A stretch of DNA of 64,000 nt, taken from assembly GCF_030013595.1 (NCBI RefSeq), contig NZ_CP122768.1; one strand, given 5' to 3'. This stretch comes from Escherichia coli (GTDB taxonomy: Bacteria; Pseudomonadota; Gammaproteobacteria; Enterobacterales; Enterobacteriaceae). Position 1 is the first letter of the stretch. Each line of letters opens with the position of its first letter. Under the pieces are notes generated by a model. That model was not told the DNA's origin. It saw only the letters and a list, made by a program, of their open reading frames with translations, and ran no database searches. A program made the translations under genes and the position numbers. Of this stretch, positions 19,168 through 60,803 are shown piece by piece.

Positions 19168-22100
19168 CTACCGCGTGCTCAGTCGCCCCTGGCTTCTGAG
19201 CACTTCACGGTGCAGGGCGTCACGTGTGAACTCGCTGATGACCTCCCGGTCCAGATTTATCTGCTGGAGATGGCCGCTGCCGTAGTACAGATGACGCTGC
19301 GTTCTGCCGTCCGGAAAGGTGGTGGCTGTCCGGTTGCTGAGTTCATCGTACTGATGGGTCAGGACGCCCTGCGCCGTCTCCTCAGTCAGCATCCGCCCCA
19401 GTCTGTCGTAACTGAAGCGGATAATCTCCGGTGCGTCTGTTTCCCCGGCATCCGACCGTCGGCGGCGGATTTCCAGTAGCTGGTCTGCCGCATCATGGAC
19501 GTATTCCGTACGGCTATCGGCTGTCTCCTTTGCCGTAAGCCGGCCCGCCGCATCACGTGCCAGCCGATGGCGGATTTCACCGCCCCGGTCCCCGGTGAAC
19601 ACCACTTCCGTGACCGCGTTCAGCGCGTTGTAGCGGTACGTCTGGCGGCAGCCGTCCGGATTTATCTGCTCCGCCAGACGGTCCAGCACATCATGGCGGA
19701 ACCGGTAGCTTTCTCCGTTCTCGTTTGTCAGCGTGACCAGACGCCCGTAAGCATCGTACCCGAATGCCGTCCTGCGCCCCGTCGCGTCCGTCCGGCTGCG
19801 CACCCGGCCCTGCCCGTCCCGCTGCCAGCGCGTTATCCTCCCCATCGGGCTGGTGTACTTCACCAGCCTGCCCGCCGCGTCCGACTGGTAATTCACCGTG
19901 CGGCCGTCCGCCAGTATCACCTCCGTCAGGTGGCCGCTGTCGTCATACCCGTAGCGCGTGCTGTGGCTCTGCGCGTCTGTCATCCGTATCAGCCGCGTGC
20001 GTTCGTCGTAGAACCAGGCCGTCTGCGAGCCGGAACAGTCCGTGTGCCGCATGAGCTGCCCGTCTTCGTTCCACTGAAGGTATTTATTCCCCCCGCGCGC
20101 ATCGGTTATCTGCACCACCTGGCCGTGGCGGTCATACTGATACCGGGTGTTCTGCTGCAGCGGGTCGGTCACCGCAAGAAGATTGCCGCGTTCATCGTAC
20201 TCACAGCACCAGCTGTTCCCCGCCGCGTCCACCTCCGTTTCCGGCTGGTGCCACACCGGGTGCCACTGTGTCTGTGCCACCCGCCCCAGCGGGTCGTGCG
20301 TCTCCGTGATATGCCCCTGCCGGTCATACACATAGCGCCATTTGCCGCCCTGCGCATCGGTCATTCCCAGTAACAGCCGTTCTTCGTCGCTCCAGCGGAA
20401 CGTCGTCACCTGCCCGGCTTCGTCCTGGTACGCCGTCACCTGGTTCTGCGCGTCCCACTGATGATAACGCGTGCGCCCCAGCCCGTCCGTCACGCACAGC
20501 CTGCGTGACGCCAGGCTCCACGCCAGCCGGTACTGTTCACCGCTGTCCGTGTGGTGCCCCGTCACCCGCCACGCTGCGTCATCCGGGCCTTCATACCAGC
20601 CCCACTGGTAATAATACCCTTCGCCGCCCGGCTGGCGGTGCAGGGTCATGCAGTGGTTTTCGTCGTAAGCAAACTCGCGCAGCAGGTGTCCCGTGCTGTC
20701 GTACACGCCGTTCAGGTCGCCGGCCTCGTCATAGCGGTAACGACGCAGCAGTAAAGGAGCCGTCTCAGGGAAATGCTGATAAATCTGTGTCACCCGCCGG
20801 GGATGCGCCGCCAGTTCATAATGCAGACGGATGCACGGACGCTGCTGTTCACCGCTGATTTGCGTGATGCGCCCCAGCTCGTCGTAGTACAGATTCAGAC
20901 AGTTGCTGTTGCGGTCGCCCAGCATTTTCAGCCGCTGGCGCTGCGGGTGATGCGGGTCGGCCTCAAACAGAAAAAACTGCCCGTCATCGCTGCTGATAAG
21001 CCAGTGCCCCTGCTCACCCCGCCTTACCGCCAGTCCTTCGCCGGGGCTGTAAAACCCGCTCCCCGGCAGCACGGCCTCCATATCCAGGCGTCGTCCCATG
21101 CCCGACACAAAGGTCATACAGTTTTCGTCAGCAGTACCCGGCGTGCGCTCGAGGCTGACTTCATACATCACGCTCCAGCCCTGCCCGAACATCCCTTCCG
21201 TGCGGTCGTCACGACTGCTGTACACGCGCTGCCAGTCCAGCGGAAAGTGGCCCGGCAGACTGAAATCGAAGTCATCGTCATCCGCCAGATATTTGGCTCC
21301 GGTGGCGGCATTGACCGGATGCGGAAGGGCACTGATGGCCTTCTGCGTCATCACCCCCATCCCGACACTGGCAGCAAAACAGGCGATTTTAGAAAGCATT
21401 TTGCCCGGGCGAAGAAACATCAGCGCCACAGTTGCCACCAGGGTTATCTGCGACCTGCCGCTTCTGATATCCCTGACCACCAGTAACGGACCGCCAATGC
21501 GGACATCCGGTGACACAAACGCCCCGTTCCCCGGCTCATTCACCACCCAGGCCTCGCAGGTGCAGCGTGCCCCGCTGCGTGCCGCCGGCTGGCTGTTGAT
21601 ACGCACATCCCGCGCGCCTTCCGCGATATATTCCGCTGCGGGCGGTTCATCATCGCCTTTGAACAGATTACTGATGCTGCCAATAACCGCATTCACTCCC
21701 TGAAAGGCGGTTTCCAGCATACCGCCCGGACTCAGCAGGTTAAGGGCCGTTCCCAGAGGGTCATCCAGAAAGGCGGCTTTTTTTTGTGCGAGAAACTGCG
21801 TCAGTGAGGAGGGATGTTTATGGCAGTCGATTTTATCGTCAGGGGTCGGGGTGGAGCCCGGGGCCGCACTGGCCACGGTGGGCTGCCATAGTTCCGACAC
21901 AAAATGTGTCACGCCATCCACCATTTCAGAACGCCCTTCTTCCGTACTGAGCTGGTCATGCAGCGCCCGGGACATCAGCACAGGCCCTGTCACCGGGTTA
22001 ACCGCCAGGGCTATGGCCCCCGCCATTTCCAGATATTCCCCGGCCACATCCCGGAACGTTCTGGCGTCCTCCTGACGCTGCGCTTCTTCCTGTTCCGCCT

Positions 22101-22503
22101 TCGCCTGTGCCTCCTGCGCCTCAATGTCCTGCCGCGATGCCGCAGTCGCCGCTGCCCGCGCGGCAGGTTTGCTGTTGATCCATGTGTCGCCAGAGCCGGT
22201 GAGGATGTAACCTTCAATCTGAGGCGGGAAAAGCATATTTGCGAGGTCTGAACAGACTTCGCTGACCTTTTCTGTCACGCCGGTGTACACCATCGCCACA
22301 CCCGCCACAAAACCGGTCAGCACGACGGCCGTGCACCCCATAGTGATCCCCGCTGACGTCGCCAGTAACGAGGTTGTGCCGACAATGAGGGCATCAATAA
22401 CGACATTTGCGGCCACCTCCAGCACCGCCCCCAGCACATCTGCCATAAACGACGTATGCAGCAGGGCATCACCCTGCCTTGCCGCCCAGAATGCCTCTTC
22501 CAT
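19168..22503 (-). CDS. prePAAR/PAAR-Rhs effector, N-terminal 1111 codons, terminated by an in-frame TAG at 19165-19167
   Basis: N-terminal AARQGDALLH (AARxxDxxxH prePAAR motif), hydrophobic segments, SKPAARA / SQPAARSG PAAR-like motifs, many YDxxGR repeats. Confidence 0.8.
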   Translation of the reverse strand: MEEAFWAARQGDALLHTSFMADVLGAVLEVAANVVIDALIVGTTSLLATSAGITMGCTAVVLTGFVAGVAMVYTGVTEKVSEVCSDLANMLFPPQIEGYILTGSGDTWINSKPAARAAATAASRQDIEAQEAQAKAEQEEAQRQEDARTFRDVAGEYLEMAGAIALAVNPVTGPVLMSRALHDQLSTEEGRSEMVDGVTHFVSELWQPTVASAAPGSTPTPDDKIDCHKHPSSLTQFLAQKKAAFLDDPLGTALNLLSPGGMLETAFQGVNAVIGSISNLFKGDDEPPAAEYIAEGARDVRINSQPAARSGARCTCEAWVVNEPGNGAFVSPDVRIGGPLLVVRDIRSGRSQITLVATVALMFLRPGKMLSKIACFAASVGMGVMTQKAISALPHPVNAATGAKYLADDDDFDFSLPGHFPLDWQRVYSSRDDRTEGMFGQGWSVMYEVSLERTPGTADENCMTFVSGMGRRLDMEAVLPGSGFYSPGEGLAVRRGEQGHWLISSDDGQFFLFEADPHHPQRQRLKMLGDRNSNCLNLYYDELGRITQISGEQQRPCIRLHYELAAHPRRVTQIYQHFPETAPLLLRRYRYDEAGDLNGVYDSTGHLLREFAYDENHCMTLHRQPGGEGYYYQWGWYEGPDDAAWRVTGHHTDSGEQYRLAWSLASRRLCVTDGLGRTRYHQWDAQNQVTAYQDEAGQVTTFRWSDEERLLLGMTDAQGGKWRYVYDRQGHITETHDPLGRVAQTQWHPVWHQPETEVDAAGNSWCCEYDERGNLLAVTDPLQQNTRYQYDRHGQVVQITDARGGNKYLQWNEDGQLMRHTDCSGSQTAWFYDERTRLIRMTDAQSHSTRYGYDDSGHLTEVILADGRTVNYQSDAAGRLVKYTSPMGRITRWQRDGQGRVRSRTDATGRRTAFGYDAYGRLVTLTNENGESYRFRHDVLDRLAEQINPDGCRQTYRYNALNAVTEVVFTGDRGGEIRHRLARDAAGRLTAKETADSRTEYVHDAADQLLEIRRRRSDAGETDAPEIIRFSYDRLGRMLTEETAQGVLTHQYDELSNRTATTFPDGRTQRHLYYGSGHLQQINLDREVISEFTRDALHREVLRSQGRLSTR

Positions 22504-22521
22504 GTCCCGTTCCCTGTGTGA

Positions 22522-22974
22522 TTAATTCGTCCCGGCTTCCTGCCGCATCCTGAAGCGCAGATTCTTTTTAATTTCAGCCCAGCGCGTCATATCTGCCGGG
22601 GTCAGCGGTGTGGTTCTGGCGTAGGTGAAGGCCATCATGACCCGCTCACCCGGCAATACAAATGCCACCTGACACTGGTACACCTGCTCGTTACCCCGGA
22701 GAAACTGGCTCTGTATTTCCAGTCCTTCTTCACCGTCATTAATCCCCACCCGTGTTACCTGAACGGGCGTGTAGTGAAGATCTTTTACCTGTTTCTCCAG
22801 TTTTTTCATTTGCTGTTCAATCTGGGAGGCTAATTCGTCTCCTTCCTGCATCTGGCCCCGGCTGATAATGAGTGCAGCGTCGGGATCGCTGAGGCGCAGC
22901 ATATTAATAGTACTGTCCTGAATAATATTCCCGGAAAAAGTTACAACAGTTTCATTGAGATAATACTCCGTCAT
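22522..22974 (-). CDS. DUF1795/Eag-family effector-associated chaperone candidate
   Basis: 150 aa immediately upstream of the prePAAR-Rhs gene, AGGA RBS; family assignment by context and size, not by a search. Confidence 0.55.
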   Translation of the reverse strand: MTEYYLNETVVTFSGNIIQDSTINMLRLSDPDAALIISRGQMQEGDELASQIEQQMKKLEKQVKDLHYTPVQVTRVGINDGEEGLEIQSQFLRGNEQVYQCQVAFVLPGERVMMAFTYARTTPLTPADMTRWAEIKKNLRFRMRQEAGTN

Positions 22975-23024
22975 AATAATATGAGTCCTTTTAAATTAAT
23001 AAATTATTTAATGATGGTTTTTGT

Positions 23025-45932: not shown

Positions 45933-45975
45933 CCAATGCCCCTATCGTTATAATACACGGTAGGGGCGTTTTTGT
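45933..45975 (+). terminator. Rho-independent terminator before the recombinase gene
   Basis: ccccta ... tagggg stem followed by CGTTTTTGTTTGG. Confidence 0.55.
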
Positions 45976-45986
45976 TTGGAAATGGT

Positions 45987-47666
45987 ATGAAAACTAAACT
46001 ATATTCGTATATTCGCTTCTCGTCTATGCGTCAGAATGATGGTTCGAGTTATGAACGGCAAATCAGGATGGCGAGAGAGGTTGCGGCAAAGTATGACCTT
46101 GAACTGGTAAATGATTATCAGGATCTGGGTGTATCTGCGTTTAAGGGTGCTAACTCTAAAACAGGGGCGCTATCTCGTTTCCTTGATGCAATTGGTAGAT
46201 CCGTTCCTGTTGGTAGCTGGCTATTCATTGAAAACTTGGACCGCTTATCCCGTGCCGATATTGTCAGTGCGCAGGAGTTATTCCTTTCAATCATCCGTAG
46301 GGGAATAACCATTGTTACTGGCATGGATAACAAGATCTACTCGCTGGATACTGTTACCGCTAATCCGATGGACCTGATGTTCTCCATCCTTCTATTCATC
46401 CGTGGTAATGAGGAAAGTCAGACTAAGCGCAATCGTACTAACTCAAGCGCATTGATTAAGATTAAAGCTCATCAAGAAAATCCCCAGAATCCGGCAGTGG
46501 CAATCGAGGAAGTTGGAAAGAATATGTGGTGGACTGATACCACATCTGGTTATGTGCTTCCTCATCCGGTCTTCTTCCCTATTGTTCAGGAAGTTGTGGA
46601 ATTACGCAGGAATGGACGGTCAACCGCCGAGATACTGGATCACCTTAACGCGACATACACACCACCACCAGCCGCAAGTCACAAGAGGCATTCAAACTGG
46701 TCACGGGCAATGATTGAAAGGTTGTTCCATACCCGCGCTTTGATTGGTATCAAGGAAATCTCTGTAGATGGCGTTAAGTATGAGTTAAAGGATTATTATC
46801 CTCGTGTGCTAGATGACGCTGAGTTTTATCACCTTAAGAAAAGCATTGGTGTTAGAGCATGTAACTATGGAGACAAGGAAGAAGTTAAACCGATCCCCCT
46901 GCTTAGTGGTGTTAATCTGCTGAAATGTGATCATTGCGGTTCCGCTATGGTTAAGGTGAAAGGAACAAACAGACGGCCTAACCAATATCGTTATTCATGC
47001 GATGCAATGCGCTCTAGTCGTATTGAATGTGTGCATACAAACTGGAGTTTTCGCGGCGACCAATTAGAGAAAGCTGTATTGCAATTGCTGGCTGATAAAA
47101 TCTGGATTGCTGAAGATAAGGCTAATCCGGTTCCGGCTTTGAAAGTACAGATTGATGAAATATCACGCAAGATTGATAACCTGATTGCCCTTTCTGCTAT
47201 GACAGGAGCAACGAAGGAGCTAGCCGATCAGATTACTACCCTCAATAGCGAGCGTGAAACACTCTACAATCAGATCAAGATGGCAGAAGAGGAAATGTAT
47301 TCTGTGGACTCTCAAGGCTGGGAGAAGCTCGCAGAATTTGATTTAGAAGATGTTTACAACGAGGATCGCATTAAGGTCCGGTTTAAGATTAAGCAAGCTC
47401 TAAAACGGATCGGGTGTAGCAGGATTGACAAGTACAAAAACTTGTTTGTACTGGAATACATCGATGGCAAGACCCAGAGAGTTGTAATAGAAAATTCAAG
47501 AGGACCGAGGAAAGGCCGGATCTTCGTTGATTTGAAGACTATCAATGATAGGCAGATTCTGGAGAGTAACGGGCTTGTTCTGCATCCATGTTTAGACATG
47601 CTGACAGATAAGAACTGGAAACCAGAAGAGGAAATACCAGGTCCATTACAGGAATTTGGAATTTAA
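45987..47666 (+). CDS. Large serine recombinase (probable prophage integrase)
   Basis: ATG at 45987 (track start 45972 is TTG); N-terminal resolvase catalytic region (LYSYIRFSSMRQ), zinc-ribbon-like Cys cluster, C-terminal coiled coil. Confidence 0.8.
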   Translation: MKTKLYSYIRFSSMRQNDGSSYERQIRMAREVAAKYDLELVNDYQDLGVSAFKGANSKTGALSRFLDAIGRSVPVGSWLFIENLDRLSRADIVSAQELFLSIIRRGITIVTGMDNKIYSLDTVTANPMDLMFSILLFIRGNEESQTKRNRTNSSALIKIKAHQENPQNPAVAIEEVGKNMWWTDTTSGYVLPHPVFFPIVQEVVELRRNGRSTAEILDHLNATYTPPPAASHKRHSNWSRAMIERLFHTRALIGIKEISVDGVKYELKDYYPRVLDDAEFYHLKKSIGVRACNYGDKEEVKPIPLLSGVNLLKCDHCGSAMVKVKGTNRRPNQYRYSCDAMRSSRIECVHTNWSFRGDQLEKAVLQLLADKIWIAEDKANPVPALKVQIDEISRKIDNLIALSAMTGATKELADQITTLNSERETLYNQIKMAEEEMYSVDSQGWEKLAEFDLEDVYNEDRIKVRFKIKQALKRIGCSRIDKYKNLFVLEYIDGKTQRVVIENSRGPRKGRIFVDLKTINDRQILESNGLVLHPCLDMLTDKNWKPEEEIPGPLQEFGI

Positions 47667-57756: not shown

Positions 57757-60111
57757 TTACATCTTACGGCGTTGTGCGTCTTCTACCGCCTGAGCAACTA
57801 ACTTAGCGTGACGTTTGATAGCATCCATGACCATCTTGTCTGAGCTATTAACGTTGCCGTTAATGTTCAAAGGCGCATTAACTTCAATCGGTTGAGAGTT
57901 GCCACCGCCTGATTTTTGAGCAGCAAGGAAGTCTTTCAAATCACCGTTAGTACGCTGATCAACTACTCGTTCACCCTTATCAAGCAACCATGTACCCTCA
58001 CGAGGGATGTTATCAATACCATCATGAGCCATACCGCTAACGTTAGTAGACTTGATGTTGGCGATGCTCCCCATGTTCTGAGAAACAGCCAATGCAGCAG
58101 CCGCGATTTTTTGACCTGTGGTTACGTTGGTCGGATCGTTCCATGCATCGGTAGCAGCCGTCCACATGTTCACCGTCGCTTGTCCAATAGAGAATGCTTT
58201 ATGAGCAGTGAAAGCCATCTGCATAGCTTTAGTGTTTTCCTGCCCGAAGAGAGTCATTGCAGCAGCAAAACCGCCATACATATCATCAGCTATTGACTGA
58301 CGAGCATCAGCATATTTCTTCTCAATTGCAGCCATTCGTTTTTGATGGTTTTCATTGAGTTTTTCTAATTCTTCCATCCGTTTAGCCGGATCGGTGATCC
58401 CATCAATCTTGATTTTACCGGTCTTATAATCTTGTTCCGCTTCCGATTTCTCTTTATCGATTGCATTAAATTTAGCAAACGGATCATTTGGATCTTGATA
58501 GTCTAAGCTATTGGTCAACTGATTGGTTTTAAAACCATCCATTCCATGCAAAGAATCTTCAATCTGTGAATAACTTTGCTCGGTATCATTCACACGACGC
58601 ATATATTCTTCGTAGGAGATAGCTTTACCATCAAGTAACCGTTTATGGCTTTCTAACTCGTTGTCCCTGATTTGTTGCAAAACTGTTAAGGCATTCAAAG
58701 CATCAACCGGATCAGCACCCAGCATCATTTTATAGATGTTTTCTGCGTTCTGGTCTAACAGTTGCTGACGTTTAGCGGCTGCGTCTTGCTGTGAGATTAA
58801 GCCCAGATCTAAAGCAGTGTCCAAATCTTTCAAGCTGGCTTCTAACTGCTTGTTTTGAGAAGCAATAGACGCGGCTGTCTGTCCTTGCAATTTAACATCA
58901 AGAGCATTCAGTCGCTTGATTGCATCCTCGCGTGCTTTCTGTGCTTTTTCTGCGGCTTCCTTAGCCTTTTTAGCTGCCTCTTCCGCTTTCTTCTTGGCTT
59001 CTTCTTGTTCTTTTTTTGTTGGACCAGTGACGCCTCCACCTTGACCCGTTGGGGTAAATCCAGTATCCGATTTATTTCCAGTGATAGTAATTACCGGATC
59101 GCCGTTTTTATCACGGGTAACTCCTTCACTATCCACCCAACGATCAGGATAATTTGGTTTATTGTTGAAGCTGGCTTGTCCACCTGCTAGACCAGTAGAA
59201 CTATAACCATGCTTGTTAATAAAACCACCGTTAGCCATAGCCATATTCTGGCGAGCTTTTTCAAACCTTTCATTAAACGTCTTTAATGCGTTGAATAAAG
59301 CGGTCTTTTCCCAATCTTTATCAAACCAGTTGTATAACTTGTTCATCCCTTCAACAACTGGATTTAGCGCATTTGCTGCCATACCCTTTAAGTTATCGGT
59401 AAGGGTATCCATATTTTTAGAGAATTTATTATATTCTTCGGCTGTATCATTGGTGATTTTAACAGTTTGCTGATTAATGGCGTTTACAGCTTCCTGATAA
59501 GATCCGTATTTCTGCAATTCATCAGCCATATGACTTGAATCACTGGCTAACGATTCCATCATAAACTTAACATCAGCGATAGACGCACCAGCCTTGCGCA
59601 TATCATAGAAGACCTTGATTGCCGCTTTCATCCCGCCTTGTGGATCGTTCATAAACTCGGCATAATCTTTAATCTTCAAACCTACACTTTCTAGGTCGTC
59701 TTCAATACCGCCACCGTTACGCCATGCATCAGCCAGTTTATCTAAGGTGTCTTTGTTAATATCACCAAATTTCTCAACGGTTAAGCCAGTGCCAGAGAAT
59801 TGCTTCTCTAATTTCTGGAGTGTTTCGACGGTTAAACCAGTTGCTTTTGAAACTTCGCTGTATTCCTTTACATAATCACCGATGGCATTTGCAGCAGAGA
59901 CAGCACCAGCAGCCAGACCAACAAAACCACCAGCAGCCAAAGCAAGCGATCCACCAGTTCCGCGAAGGGTTCCACTTAAACTAGATAAACCACCAGACAA
60001 ATCAAGATTCATTGCCCTTTCTGAAAGGTTATCAAGCATGTCAATCGCTTGGTTGGTACTTCTCCTTAGACCGTCGTTATTCCCTTCTATTGTTACTATA
60101 TGTCTTGTCAT
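57757..60111 (-). CDS. Tail tape measure protein
   Basis: 784 aa, long coiled-coil/Ala-Lys-Glu-rich regions (EEAKKKAEEAAKKAKEAAEKAQKA), Gly-rich segment. Confidence 0.8.
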   Translation of the reverse strand: MTRHIVTIEGNNDGLRRSTNQAIDMLDNLSERAMNLDLSGGLSSLSGTLRGTGGSLALAAGGFVGLAAGAVSAANAIGDYVKEYSEVSKATGLTVETLQKLEKQFSGTGLTVEKFGDINKDTLDKLADAWRNGGGIEDDLESVGLKIKDYAEFMNDPQGGMKAAIKVFYDMRKAGASIADVKFMMESLASDSSHMADELQKYGSYQEAVNAINQQTVKITNDTAEEYNKFSKNMDTLTDNLKGMAANALNPVVEGMNKLYNWFDKDWEKTALFNALKTFNERFEKARQNMAMANGGFINKHGYSSTGLAGGQASFNNKPNYPDRWVDSEGVTRDKNGDPVITITGNKSDTGFTPTGQGGGVTGPTKKEQEEAKKKAEEAAKKAKEAAEKAQKAREDAIKRLNALDVKLQGQTAASIASQNKQLEASLKDLDTALDLGLISQQDAAAKRQQLLDQNAENIYKMMLGADPVDALNALTVLQQIRDNELESHKRLLDGKAISYEEYMRRVNDTEQSYSQIEDSLHGMDGFKTNQLTNSLDYQDPNDPFAKFNAIDKEKSEAEQDYKTGKIKIDGITDPAKRMEELEKLNENHQKRMAAIEKKYADARQSIADDMYGGFAAAMTLFGQENTKAMQMAFTAHKAFSIGQATVNMWTAATDAWNDPTNVTTGQKIAAAALAVSQNMGSIANIKSTNVSGMAHDGIDNIPREGTWLLDKGERVVDQRTNGDLKDFLAAQKSGGGNSQPIEVNAPLNINGNVNSSDKMVMDAIKRHAKLVAQAVEDAQRRKM

Positions 60112-60114
60112 AAA

Positions 60115-60465
60115 TTACCCCGTTTGTGCGCTTCTGAGTTTCTCAAGCAAAGATGGATCGAACATGTTCAGCATTGCCGCTTTACGTTCTTCTTCTTTCT
60201 TGCGTGCAATTTCTTCCAGTTCTTCTTTAGTTTTAAAGAGTTTTTCTTCTCTAATTAATTGGAATTGGCTAGGCTTGAGTTTGCGTGCAGTTTCGCGAGT
60301 CATTCCTTGTGACGTCATATACATGGAATATTGCAACATCGCATTCTGCATATCATGAAACGCGGGGCTTTGTGGTTCTAAGTAGGTGTCGAAAATGTAT
60401 AATTTCCAAAACAGAGTGATTGGCATATTATCCATTTCATCTTTACTAAGCCCCGATCGCATCAT
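60115..60465 (-). CDS. Tail assembly chaperone, T-like frame
   Basis: 116 aa immediately upstream of TMP; its frame is open across the stop of the preceding gene. Confidence 0.45.
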   Translation of the reverse strand: MMRSGLSKDEMDNMPITLFWKLYIFDTYLEPQSPAFHDMQNAMLQYSMYMTSQGMTRETARKLKPSQFQLIREEKLFKTKEELEEIARKKEEERKAAMLNMFDPSLLEKLRSAQTG

Positions 60466-60494
60466 TTGCCGGAAATAGAAATTCAGAAGCGGGT

Positions 60495-60803
60495 TTACTT
60501 TACCTCGTTTTCAATTACTGCCGGATCTTGCATCAATGACGCTTGAGCAACCAAACCGATTAATTCACTACGGACGTTAGTATACAGTGCCTTAACTTGT
60601 TCCATAGATTCAAATACTGGTTTACCGTCTTCATCTTCAATACAACGAAGAATAGAACGTTCATCACGGTCTTCTTTATCAGTATTGAAAACATGTTCGT
60701 TAAATTCTTTTACTGACATAGGGCGAGCATAGAACGTGAATCCGCCGATGGTCAGAGATTCACGTTTCGGAGAAAGAGCTTTCAGCATTTCATTAATATT
60801 CAT
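60495..60803 (-). CDS. Tail assembly chaperone, G-like
   Basis: 102 aa acidic protein between tail tube-side genes and TMP. Confidence 0.45.
   Translation of the reverse strand: MNINEMLKALSPKRESLTIGGFTFYARPMSVKEFNEHVFNTDKEDRDERSILRCIEDEDGKPVFESMEQVKALYTNVRSELIGLVAQASLMQDPAVIENEVK

What the first reader, a model, noticed from the sequence alone, without database searches (positions are those of the whole stretch)
60466..60513. Tail chaperone pair with the downstream frame open across the upstream stop
The T-like ORF frame (-1 relative to the G-like gene) is open for 45 nt upstream of its ATG and overlaps the last codons of the G-like gene, the arrangement used for G/GT frameshift fusions ahead of tape-measure genes. 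I could not identify a canonical X-XXY-YYZ slippery heptamer in the overlap, so this is only suggestive.
Basis: partly seen in the sequence, partly recalled or inferred. Interest (0 to 1): 0.35.

Follow-up and report, generated by a model that had tools for sequence, protein, structure and literature searches.

The report
Unannotated prophage tail-chaperone frameshift site
An E. coli prophage most likely makes its two tail-assembly chaperones, as phage lambda does, by letting a few ribosomes slip back one base at the last lysine codon of the first gene; this is an ordinary mechanism at a non-textbook slip sequence that annotators have missed.

Summary
On the minus strand, the T-like ORF (60465..60115) lies in the -1 frame of the G-like gene (60803..60495). 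Its frame is open for 45 nt above its ATG and overlaps the last 16 nt of G. That openness alone is about what chance gives (roughly 0.34).

Comparison with relatives supports the frameshift reading.
- In about 20 lineages of this small family, an in-frame A_AAG sits at the same aligned position near the end of G.
- Frame-0 conservation stops at that lysine, and -1-frame conservation starts there.
- The 29-nt "spacer" above the T ATG evolves like coding sequence in the T frame (8 synonymous to 2 non-synonymous variants).
- The T ATG has no Shine-Dalgarno sequence.

The window's slip site is G_GTA_AAG (60504..60498), followed at once by the stop TAA. It differs by one base from lambda's G_GGA_AAG. 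Relatives carry A_AAA_AAG, T_TTA_AAG, G_GAA_AAG or A_GTA_AAG.

The predicted G structure best matches the HK97 tail assembly chaperone. I found no stimulatory RNA structure. The predicted fusion protein is 229 aa.

Verdict: a new member of the known G/GT system, with a tetramer-type slip site. RefSeq calls the T-like gene "hypothetical protein" and the G-like gene "hypothetical protein" or "cytochrome". No product was observed here. Interest is modest.

The parts
60495..60803 (-). G-like tail assembly chaperone gene (102 aa). It has a strong Shine-Dalgarno sequence (AGAGGA), and this is the product of normal frame-0 translation.
   Evidence: ORF. PHROG 344 'tail assembly chaperone' E 2.3e-7. 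Pfam Phage_TAC_13 at 22.3 bits, below its cut-off. AlphaFold model pLDDT 82.5, with top Foldseek PDB hit 2ob9, the HK97 tail assembly chaperone: prob 1.0, E 1.9e-3, TM 0.54-0.59. SD duplex -6.0 kcal/mol.
60498..60504 (-). Proposed -1 slip site G_GTA_AAG (frame 0: Val101 Lys102; frame -1: GGT AAA). The core is the tetramer A_AAG at 60501..60498.
   Evidence: It is the only in-frame A_AAG in G. It is invariant in all 30 distinct close relatives, including L024/L025 where the upstream flank has diverged. An in-frame A_AAG lies at the aligned position in all distant lineages with a normal frame arrangement. It differs by one base from lambda's G_GGA_AAG.
60495..60497 (-). G stop codon TAA, immediately 3' of the slip codon. 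It may act as a pause element.
   Evidence: Sequence. A stop directly follows AAG in the window clade and in L024/L025 (=L109/L111), L113, L072, L075, L078, L114 and L117. It is absent in L112, P0110 and P0117 (TAA changed to AAA) and in L069, L070 and DCP80.
60511..60513 (-). TGA stop in the T (-1) frame. It sets the 5' limit of the window in which the frame change must happen.
60466..60498 (-). Trans-frame linker of 11 codons (VNPLLNFYFRQ), read in the -1 frame between the slip site and the annotated T ATG. It is nominally intergenic.
   Evidence: 8 synonymous to 2 non-synonymous codon variants in the T frame, against 1 to 8 in the G frame. Variable columns by T-frame codon position are 2/9, 1/10 and 7/10. 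The peptide motif K-x-(RS)-N/D-P/W-x-x-x-F-x-Y/F-R-Q is conserved across homologues with less than 50% identity. No conserved start codon lies within it.
60115..60465 (-). T-like ORF (116 aa as called), proposed to be expressed as the C-terminal domain of a 229-aa G-T fusion.
   Evidence: Pfam Phage_tail_T E 2.7e-4, at 21.7 bits against a cut-off of 25.9; 7 of 20 family members hit it. There is no SD at the ATG: -1.7 kcal/mol, against -6 to -10 for neighbouring genes. Gene callers disagree on the start, giving 116, 113, 103-105, 100, 78 or 75 aa. DCP80 and L074 have no Met at this position.
57757..60111 (-). Tape measure protein gene (784 aa), immediately downstream of T.
   Evidence: PHROG 13674 'tail length tape measure protein' E 9e-70.
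61527..62003 (-). Major tail (tube) protein gene, upstream of G. A gp38-like adhesin gene (61352..60846) lies between them.
   Evidence: PHROG 158 E 6.7e-22; Pfam lambda-like TTP families near threshold. RefSeq names it 'phage tail tube protein' in E. coli 14EC029.

Best explanation
This is the G/GT tail-assembly-chaperone pair of a lambda-like siphovirus prophage of E. coli, expressed by programmed -1 ribosomal frameshifting.

Most ribosomes translate G (102 aa) and terminate at TAA 60497..60495. A minority slip back one base on G_GTA_AAG (60504..60498). The single E. coli tRNA-Lys moves from AAG to the overlapping AAA. The Val-tRNA on GUA either re-pairs imperfectly on GGU or does not need to re-pair. 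Translation then continues in the -1 frame through 11 linker codons (VNPLLNFYFRQ) and the T ORF, giving a 229-aa G-T fusion.

By analogy with lambda, the G part would coat the tape measure protein, and the rare T part would recruit the tube protein.

Shown here: the frame geometry, the conserved A_AAG, the switch of conservation between frames, the coding-type evolution of the linker, the missing ribosome-binding site for T, and the chaperone fold of G.

Inferred: that slippage actually happens, how efficient it is, which ribosomal site the Lys-tRNA occupies when it slips, and what the two proteins do.
For: 1. Geometry: T is in the -1 frame, and the shift window is 60510..60498.

2. Linker evolution: in 30 distinct close relatives the 29-nt 'spacer' shows 8 synonymous to 2 non-synonymous variants in the T frame, against 1 to 8 in the G frame. 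As a rough figure, the binomial P is about 4e-4 if 25% synonymous were expected. Variation concentrates at T-frame third positions, 7/10.

3. Family size and arrangement: an exhaustive HMM search finds only 27 clusters at 50% identity, two of which are repetitive false positives. In 9 of 11 contexts retrieved T is in the -1 frame.

4. Conserved slip motif: 11 more IMG/VR lineages with a complete G all have an in-frame A_AAG at the same aligned place. The motifs seen are A_AAA_AAG, T_TTA_AAG, G_GTA_AAG, A_GTA_AAG, G_GAA_AAG and A_GAA_AAG. In L078 and L074 the -1-frame stop lies directly before A_AAA_AAG. In L078 the G stop also follows directly, which pins the shift to the heptamer.

5. Frame switch: downstream of the AAG, mean pairwise BLOSUM scores are 27.5 in frame -1, -1.5 in frame 0 and 2.1 in frame +1. 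Upstream they are 14.7 in frame 0, -0.4 in frame -1 and 1.7 in frame +1. The -1 frame is open downstream in 11 of 11.

6. Codon choice: Val before the slip Lys is GTA in every lineage that has Val there, and the Lys is always AAG, although G otherwise prefers AAA, 5 to 2.

7. T start: no SD at the T ATG, -1.7 kcal/mol against -6 to -10 for other tail genes. The Met is absent in DCP80 and L074.

8. Protein identity: the G model's top PDB match is the HK97 tail assembly chaperone 2ob9, and T hits Pfam Phage_tail_T weakly.

9. Literature: A_AAG is the most shift-prone tetramer in E. coli (PMC4066793). NNA_AAG sites are used by IS1222 and occur at B. subtilis cdd, with efficiency depending on the wobble properties of the tRNA on the 5' codon (PMC5009743).

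10. Lambda: its site G_GGA_AAG differs by one base, and both read G-K-V in the -1 frame.
Against: - No fusion product was observed, and nothing here measures frameshifting.
- The heptamer is not canonical. The P-site Val-tRNA would mispair at the middle position of GGU.
- In reporter assays, tetramers without a stimulator were only marginally above background (about 0.15% against 0.11%, PMC4066793). I found no stimulator: downstream folding is weaker than shuffles (z +1.4 and +1.7), there are no compensatory pairs and no Rfam family. The GAGG just upstream is too close to the site and is not conserved (L024 and L070 have TCGG).
- In-frame A_AAG also occurs in genes where no shift is expected, including GTA_AAG in the tape measure gene at 59868.
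- The similarity of T to lambda T is below curated thresholds, and hhalign against the single lambda T sequence gives E 0.3.
- Most relatives keep ATG(ATG) at the called T start, so some independent initiation cannot be excluded.
Confidence: 0.82

Rival explanations
1. There is no recoding. T is a separate gene translated from ATG 60465 (or ATG 60462), perhaps by re-initiation of ribosomes that have just terminated G 29 nt upstream. The 45-nt open stretch is chance.
For: The open stretch is not statistically unusual, P about 0.34. An ATG is present here and in most relatives. There is no canonical heptamer and no predicted stimulator. All public annotation treats the two as separate genes.
Against: The region above the ATG evolves as coding sequence in the T frame. 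Its peptide is conserved in homologues below 50% identity. It contains no conserved start codon. DCP80 and L074 lack the Met altogether. The ATG has no SD. The in-frame A_AAG with fixed GTA and AAG codon choice has no explanation under this model.
Confidence: 0.08
2. The -1 frameshift is real, but it works as a 'shifty stop'. Peptidyl-tRNA-Lys slips from AAG to AAA in the P site while the A site waits on the slowly decoded stop codon TAA. It is not a tandem or A-site slip on the heptamer. The adjacent stop would be the stimulator that replaces an RNA structure.
For: TAA directly follows AAG in the window clade and in L024/L025 (=L109/L111), L113, L072, L075, L078, L114 and L117; in six more lineages (L073, L116, L119, L120, L123, L124) the stop is one codon later. 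No other stimulator was found. A 17-nt island, GGTAAAGTAAACCCGCT, is identical between lineages whose flanks differ. From general knowledge, Weiss et al. 1987 described stop-adjacent slippage. Stalling at stop codons promotes -1 shifts in E. coli (PMC6815119), although there the effect was through collisions 8-10 codons upstream.
Against: L112, P0110 and P0117 have TAA changed to AAA with the same G_GTA_AAG. L069, L070, L122 and DCP80 run 10-11 codons past the site. So the stop is not required across the family. Both mechanisms give the same protein sequence, so sequence data cannot separate them.
Confidence: 0.35
3. The shift occurs elsewhere in the overlap, on T_GAA_AAC (60513..60507), or the extra product comes from transcriptional slippage rather than from the ribosome.
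For: GAA AAC contains a run of four A inside the permitted window. Relatives L076 and L077 carry runs of A8 and A10 at the site, with aberrant frame relations that could reflect polymerase slippage.
Against: GAA AAC is replaced by GAA GAA TCG in L024/L025 while the downstream frame is kept. tRNA-Asn would re-pair poorly on AAA. From general knowledge, the window has only three or four consecutive A's, far fewer than the 7-9 usually needed for transcriptional slippage. The L076 and L077 runs are in short metagenome contigs, where homopolymer length is unreliable.
Confidence: 0.03

Closest known systems
Phage lambda G / G-T tail assembly chaperones (Levin et al. 1993; Xu, Hendrix and Duda 2004, as cited in PMC5009743)
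   Same: There are two small ORFs just upstream of the tape measure gene, downstream of the tube gene. The second is in the -1 frame and overlaps the end of the first. The slip is on ...A_AAG near the end of G. Lambda's heptamer G_GGA_AAG differs from the window's G_GTA_AAG by one base, and both read Gly-Lys-Val in the -1 frame. No strong RNA stimulator was found here. The T ATG has no ribosome-binding site.
   Different: The heptamer is not of the X_XXY_YYZ type. The G stop follows the slip codon at once, whereas lambda has 5 more codons. G is 102 aa rather than 140, with no detectable sequence similarity to lambda G (hhalign E 0.43). Similarity to lambda T is only sub-threshold. A gp38-like adhesin gene lies between the tube gene and G.
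HK97 tail assembly chaperone (PDB 2ob9)
   Same: It is the best structural match of the predicted G protein over its full length: Foldseek prob 1.0, E 1.9e-3, TM 0.54-0.59, about 20-22% identity.
   Different: The comparison uses a predicted structure, not a solved one, and the E-value is moderate.
Tetra- and hexanucleotide -1 shift sites NNA_AAG: IS3 (A_AAG), IS1222 (G_CGA_AAG), B. subtilis cdd (A_CGA_AAG) (PMC5009743, PMC4066793)
   Same: The slip depends on a single tRNA-Lys moving from AAG to AAA. The 5' codon cannot re-pair fully in the -1 frame. A_AAG is the best tetramer in E. coli.
   Different: The IS elements use a downstream pseudoknot or hairpin, or an upstream SD, and none was found here. 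The gene context is phage tail assembly, not a transposase.
E. coli dnaX A_AAA_AAG frameshift
   Same: Several relatives (L071, L072, L074, L075, L078, L114) carry exactly A_AAA_AAG at the homologous site.
   Different: dnaX has an upstream SD and a downstream hairpin, and its shift shortens the product. Here the shift lengthens it, and the window's own site is not A_AAA_AAG.

Membership tests
Lambda-type G/GT tail assembly chaperone pair with programmed -1 frameshift | Two small ORFs lie between the major tail (tube) gene and the tape measure gene | tested here: met
   The order on the minus strand is tube 62003..61527, gp38-like 61352..60846, G 60803..60495, T 60465..60115, tape measure 60111..57757. 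The extra adhesin gene sits between tube and G.
Lambda-type G/GT tail assembly chaperone pair with programmed -1 frameshift | The downstream ORF is in the -1 frame, with its frame open across the end of the upstream ORF | tested here: met
   Frame offset 2, which equals -1, with a 16-nt overlap. This is kept in 9 of 11 distant contexts, and the -1 frame is likewise open across the G stop into a 129-159-aa T-like reading frame in 11 further lineages with a complete G.
Lambda-type G/GT tail assembly chaperone pair with programmed -1 frameshift | A canonical slippery heptamer X_XXY_YYZ lies in the overlap | tested here: not met
   The window has G_GTA_AAG. Canonical A_AAA_AAG or T_TTA_AAG is present at the homologous position in L071, L072, L074, L075, L078, L114 and DCP80. 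The conserved element is the tetramer A_AAG.
Lambda-type G/GT tail assembly chaperone pair with programmed -1 frameshift | The arrangement and slip site are conserved among homologues, and protein conservation switches frame at the site | tested here: met
Lambda-type G/GT tail assembly chaperone pair with programmed -1 frameshift | The upstream protein belongs to the tail assembly chaperone fold or families | tested here: met
   Foldseek top hit is 2ob9, the HK97 chaperone. PHROG 344 E 2.3e-7. Pfam TAC_13 is hit by 7 of 12 family members but below the gathering score.
Lambda-type G/GT tail assembly chaperone pair with programmed -1 frameshift | The downstream domain is homologous to lambda T (Pfam PF06223) | tested here: inconclusive
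   21.7 bits against a cut-off of 25.9. 7 of 20 family members hit, best E 1.3e-5. hhalign to lambda T gives E 0.3, with a plausible M-x-x-G-[LM]-S motif alignment.
Lambda-type G/GT tail assembly chaperone pair with programmed -1 frameshift | The T part has no independent translation start | tested here: inconclusive
   There is no SD, -1.7 kcal/mol against -6 to -10 for neighbours. The Met is missing in DCP80 and L074. But an ATG ATG is present in the window, so weak independent initiation is not excluded.
Lambda-type G/GT tail assembly chaperone pair with programmed -1 frameshift | A fusion protein is made at a low fixed ratio to G and is needed for tail assembly | not testable with these tools
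   This needs western blotting or mass spectrometry and genetics.
Tetramer/hexamer NNA_AAG -1 shift sites (IS3, IS1222, cdd type) | An in-frame A_AAG allows cognate re-pairing of tRNA-Lys in the -1 frame | tested here: met
   A_AAG at 60501..60498 is the only one in G. The host is E. coli, which has a single tRNA-Lys for AAA and AAG (PMC5009743).
Tetramer/hexamer NNA_AAG -1 shift sites (IS3, IS1222, cdd type) | A flanking stimulator is present: a downstream pseudoknot or hairpin, or an upstream SD at 10-14 nt | tested here: not met
   Folding z-scores are +1.4 and +1.7. RNAalifold gives -8 kcal/mol with 0 compensatory pairs. There is no Rfam hit. GAGG lies only 2 nt from the AAG codon and is not conserved.

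The most novel reading that the evidence does not exclude
This whole family of enterobacterial tail chaperones works mainly with a bare A_AAG tetramer. Most lineages have non-canonical G_GTA_AAG or G_GAA_AAG and no RNA stimulator. The G stop codon placed zero or one codon after the slip lysine serves as the pause element. This would be a natural 'shifty stop' -1 frameshift that sets the G:GT ratio.
Probability: 0.3. Interest if true: 0.4.

Novelty: new member of a known kind. Interest (0 to 1): 0.3.

Why it matters
**Annotation.** The prophage is present in 50 of 5,426 complete E. coli genomes, and relatives occur in Salmonella, Shigella, Proteus, Providencia and Edwardsiella. There T is labelled 'hypothetical protein' and G 'hypothetical protein' or, wrongly, 'cytochrome'. 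The start of T is placed inconsistently, and no ribosomal slippage is recorded.

**Detection rule.** The family shows how often tail-chaperone frameshifts rest on a non-canonical NNA_AAG site, so searches that need X_XXY_YYZ will miss them. A more reliable signal is that protein conservation changes reading frame at an in-frame A_AAG.

**Experimental use.** The family offers natural variants for testing how the P-site codon and an adjacent stop affect -1 frameshifting in E. coli: the stop adjacent, one codon later, or up to eleven codons away, and GTA, GAA, AAA or TTA as the 5' codon.

The finding does not change what is known about how tails are assembled.

Tried and rejected
- **Close phage relatives.** Megablast of the tail region against 50,697 phage records found nothing. 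tblastn found only Escherichia phage DCP80.
- **T_GAA_AAC as the slip site.** Rejected: it is not conserved in L024/L025.
- **Downstream hairpin or pseudoknot.** Single-sequence folds are weaker than shuffles. RNAalifold on 9 relatives shows no compensatory changes. Rfam gave no relevant hit.
- **Internal SD stimulator.** GAGG at 60506..60503 is too close to the site and is not conserved.
- **Alternative start codon in the linker.** None is conserved: the CTG is TTG in L027 and TTA in L024.
- **Natural in-frame G-T fusions.** None found among G homologues, which are all 80-106 aa. The long hits P0086 and P0091 to the T profile are repetitive false positives.
- **Search with the 229-aa fusion.** It returned no scored hits. 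I treat this as uninformative, because G and T searched separately both find relatives.
- **The 12-member G alignment (A3).** It was too divergent for a locus scan. A narrower alignment, A6, worked.
- **PDB sequence searches.** Searches with the G and T profiles gave nothing useful.
- **Licznar et al. 2003.** This paper has the hexamer efficiencies, including the effect of the 5' codon, but it is not held in the library. I therefore have no measured value for GUA_AAG.

Full report
**Observation**

All genes at this end of the window are on the minus strand.
- The G-like ORF runs 60803..60495 (102 aa, stop TAA 60497..60495).
- The T-like ORF runs 60465..60115 (116 aa).
- The tape measure gene starts at 60111.

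T lies in the -1 frame of G. Its frame is open for exactly 45 nt above the ATG, back to TGA at 60513..60511, so the two frames overlap by 16 nt. The overlap reads GAA AAC GAG GTA AAG TAA in the G frame and has no X_XXY_YYZ heptamer.

On its own it means little. Off-frame stops occur at about 0.07 per codon in this region, so 15 open codons are expected about one time in three.

**Context**

The window is E. coli chromosome; 20000..23000 is 99.9% identical to E. coli HCP5S3_I2. A prophage occupies its right-hand end. The G-T segment is found in 50 of 5,426 complete E. coli genomes.

The gene order is tail fibre, tube protein, gp38-like adhesin, G, T, tape measure, then distal tail and J-like tip proteins. 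In RefSeq, T is 'hypothetical protein' and G is 'hypothetical protein' or 'cytochrome', and no ribosomal slippage is annotated.

No sequenced phage is close. Only Escherichia phage DCP80 has detectable G and T homologues, at 30% and 40% identity.

**Protein identity**

- G hits PHROG 344, 'tail assembly chaperone' (E 2.3e-7), and Pfam Phage_TAC_13 below its cut-off.
- An AlphaFold model built from a 12-sequence alignment has pLDDT 82.5. Its best match in the PDB is the HK97 tail assembly chaperone 2ob9 (prob 1.0, E 1.9e-3, TM 0.54-0.59).
- T hits Pfam Phage_tail_T at 21.7 bits, against a cut-off of 25.9. Seven of 20 family members hit it.
- A profile comparison with the lambda T sequence is not significant (E 0.3), although it aligns a shared M-x-x-G-[LM]-S motif.

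**Close relatives**

IMG/VR holds 32-34 prophage-derived contigs with this T. They give 30 distinct G-T sequences including the window.

The 17 nt GGTAAAGTAAACCCGCT are identical in all of them apart from a 3-nt insertion in L015. This includes L024/L025, whose flanks differ on both sides.

The 29-nt 'spacer' between the G stop and the T ATG varies as coding sequence does in the T frame:
- 8 synonymous and 2 non-synonymous codon variants in the T frame, against 1 and 8 in the G frame;
- variable columns at T-frame codon positions 1, 2 and 3 in 2/9, 1/10 and 7/10 cases.

No start codon is conserved inside the spacer. If it is translated in the T frame, the ribosomes must therefore come from G.

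**Distant relatives**

An exhaustive profile search of 1.84 billion representative proteins finds only 27 clusters at 50% identity. Two of them are repetitive false positives.

I fetched the DNA around ten of these clusters and around DCP80, and around eleven further G homologues with a complete G from IMG/VR. T is in the -1 frame in 9 of the first 11. Every lineage with the normal frame arrangement has an in-frame A_AAG at the same aligned position.

| Slip motif | Lineages |
|---|---|
| G_GTA_AAG | window clade, L024/L025 (=L109/L111), L112, L113, L070 |
| A_GTA_AAG | L069, L122 |
| G_GAA_AAG | L073, L116, L117, L119, L120, L123 |
| A_GAA_AAG | L124 |
| A_AAA_AAG | L071, L072, L074, L075, L078, L114 |
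| T_TTA_AAG | DCP80 |

Other points from these contexts:
- In L078 the -1-frame stop lies immediately before, and the G stop immediately after, the heptamer. The shift can occur nowhere else.
- Val before the slip Lys is always GTA, and the Lys is always AAG, although G otherwise prefers AAA.
- Anchoring all sequences on that AAG shows a clean switch of conservation from frame 0 to frame -1 at that codon:

| Region relative to AAG | Frame 0 | Frame -1 | Frame +1 |
|---|---|---|---|
| 12 codons upstream | 14.7 | -0.4 | 1.7 |
| 16 codons downstream | -1.5 | 27.5 | 2.1 |

(Values are mean pairwise BLOSUM scores.)

- The -1 frame is open downstream in all 11 sequences, and 9 of 11 have a stop in it within the 12 codons upstream.
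- The -1 peptide K-x-(RS)-N/D-P/W-x-x-x-F-x-Y/F-R-Q-[MIL] is shared from the lysine onward.

**Translation start of T**

The T ATG has no Shine-Dalgarno sequence. Its best duplex with the anti-SD is -1.7 kcal/mol, no better than the coding-sequence background (mean -2.4). The starts of the tube, gp38-like, G, tape measure, L-like and J-like genes give -5.9 to -9.9.

Gene callers place the T start at six different positions. DCP80 and L074 have no Met at the aligned position.

**Mechanism**

The best-supported reading is a -1 programmed frameshift on G_GTA_AAG (60504..60498). It would give a 229-aa fusion: G residues 1-102, then VNPLLNFYFRQ, then T.

Three published points bear on this:
- E. 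coli has a single tRNA-Lys for AAA and AAG (PMC5009743).
- A_AAG is the most shift-prone tetramer in E. coli (PMC4066793).
- NNA_AAG sites are used by IS1222 and occur at cdd. Their efficiency depends on the wobble capacity of the tRNA reading the 5' codon (PMC5009743).

From general knowledge, GUA is read in E. coli by a cmo5U34 tRNA-Val with broad wobble. I could not obtain measured values for GUA_AAG.

The site differs by one base from lambda's G_GGA_AAG, and both read Gly-Lys-Val in the new frame.

**What remains weak**

- No stimulator was found.
- Tetramers without a stimulator were barely above background in reporters (PMC4066793).
- In-frame A_AAG also occurs in other genes of the prophage, including GTA_AAG in the tape measure gene.

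The stop codon directly after the slip codon may supply the pause. It is adjacent in the window clade and seven further lineages, and one codon away in six more. It cannot be essential across the family, because L112, P0110 and P0117 have replaced it with AAA, and L069, L070, L122 and DCP80 continue for 10-11 codons.

Whether the lysyl-tRNA slips in the A site or the P site cannot be told from sequence, because both give the same protein.

**Rivals**

- Independent initiation of T does not explain the coding-type evolution and deep conservation of the linker, the fixed codon choice at the site, or the lineages without a Met. I give it about 0.08.
- A shift at T_GAA_AAC, or transcriptional slippage, is unlikely here (about 0.03).
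- The aberrant A8 and A10 runs in the metagenome contigs L076 and L077 are more likely assembly errors. They are noted below as unexplained.

**Verdict**

This is a new, unannotated member of the well-known G/GT tail-chaperone frameshift system. Its slip site is of the tetramer (NNA_AAG) type rather than the canonical heptamer type.

The result is useful for annotation, and the family offers a natural series for studying how sequence context affects A_AAG slippage. It would not surprise a specialist. Expression of the fusion has not been shown.

Noticed in passing
window 60846..61352 (-): A gp38-like tail-fibre adhesin gene (Pfam Gp38_N E 3.5e-15; PHROG 1121 E 5.6e-33) sits between the tube gene and the chaperone gene G. 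This slot varies among relatives: L069 has a YecR-like gene on the opposite strand, L073 has an Endonuclease_7 gene plus two small ORFs, and L075 has gp38 upstream of the tube gene.
   Followed up: partly
window 60495..60803 (-), and homologues P0092-P0118: NCBI and UniRef name the G-like tail assembly chaperone 'cytochrome' in E. coli, Salmonella, Proteus and Edwardsiella records. It has no haem-binding motif that I noticed, and its predicted fold matches the HK97 tail chaperone. This looks like a propagated misannotation.
   Followed up: partly
L001 (Escherichia phage DCP80, PQ671644.1, 8142-20342): This 141-kb record is filed under Straboviridae/Tevenvirinae/Gaprivervirus, yet it carries a siphovirus-type module of tube-like gene, G, T and tape measure. 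Every CDS is 'hypothetical protein', and there is a canonical T_TTA_AAG G/T slip site. It may be a chimeric assembly or a misclassification.
   Followed up: no
L076 2470-2520 and L077 620-660: Two metagenome relatives have long A runs at the slip site with aberrant frame relations. In L076 (A8), T is in the same frame as G after the stop, while the family motif KKIRANP is in the -1 frame and soon hits a stop. In L077 (A10), T is in the +1 frame. These could be homopolymer assembly errors, decaying prophages or sites of transcriptional slippage.
   Followed up: partly
window 60488..60504 (-): A 17-nt island, GGTAAAGTAAACCCGCT, is identical between the window clade and L024/L025 although both flanks have diverged. 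Third positions of GTA, AAC and CCG never vary. This suggests a nucleotide-level constraint on the 3' context of the slip site. No structure explains it.
   Followed up: partly
window 45972..47666 (+): A large serine recombinase (Resolvase, Recombinase and Zn_ribbon_recom domains) lies beyond the lysis genes. It is probably the prophage integrase and marks the prophage end. The same arrangement is seen in E. coli 14EC029.
   Followed up: no
window 62059..63984 (-): A tail-fibre gene with a Gp34 trimerisation domain and a C-terminal Peptidase_S74 chaperone domain lies upstream of the tube gene, inside the tail-shaft module. The listed ORF (641 aa, TTG start) is much shorter than the 1,091-aa homologue in E. 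coli 14EC029, so its true start may differ or lie outside the window.
   Followed up: no
window 59868 (-), and four other in-frame A_AAG sites in the tape measure gene: The tape measure gene contains five in-frame A_AAG sites, including the same GTA_AAG hexamer and one AAA_AAG at 58968. Low-level -1 shifting there would truncate the protein. I did not examine whether these sites are conserved or avoided in relatives.
   Followed up: no
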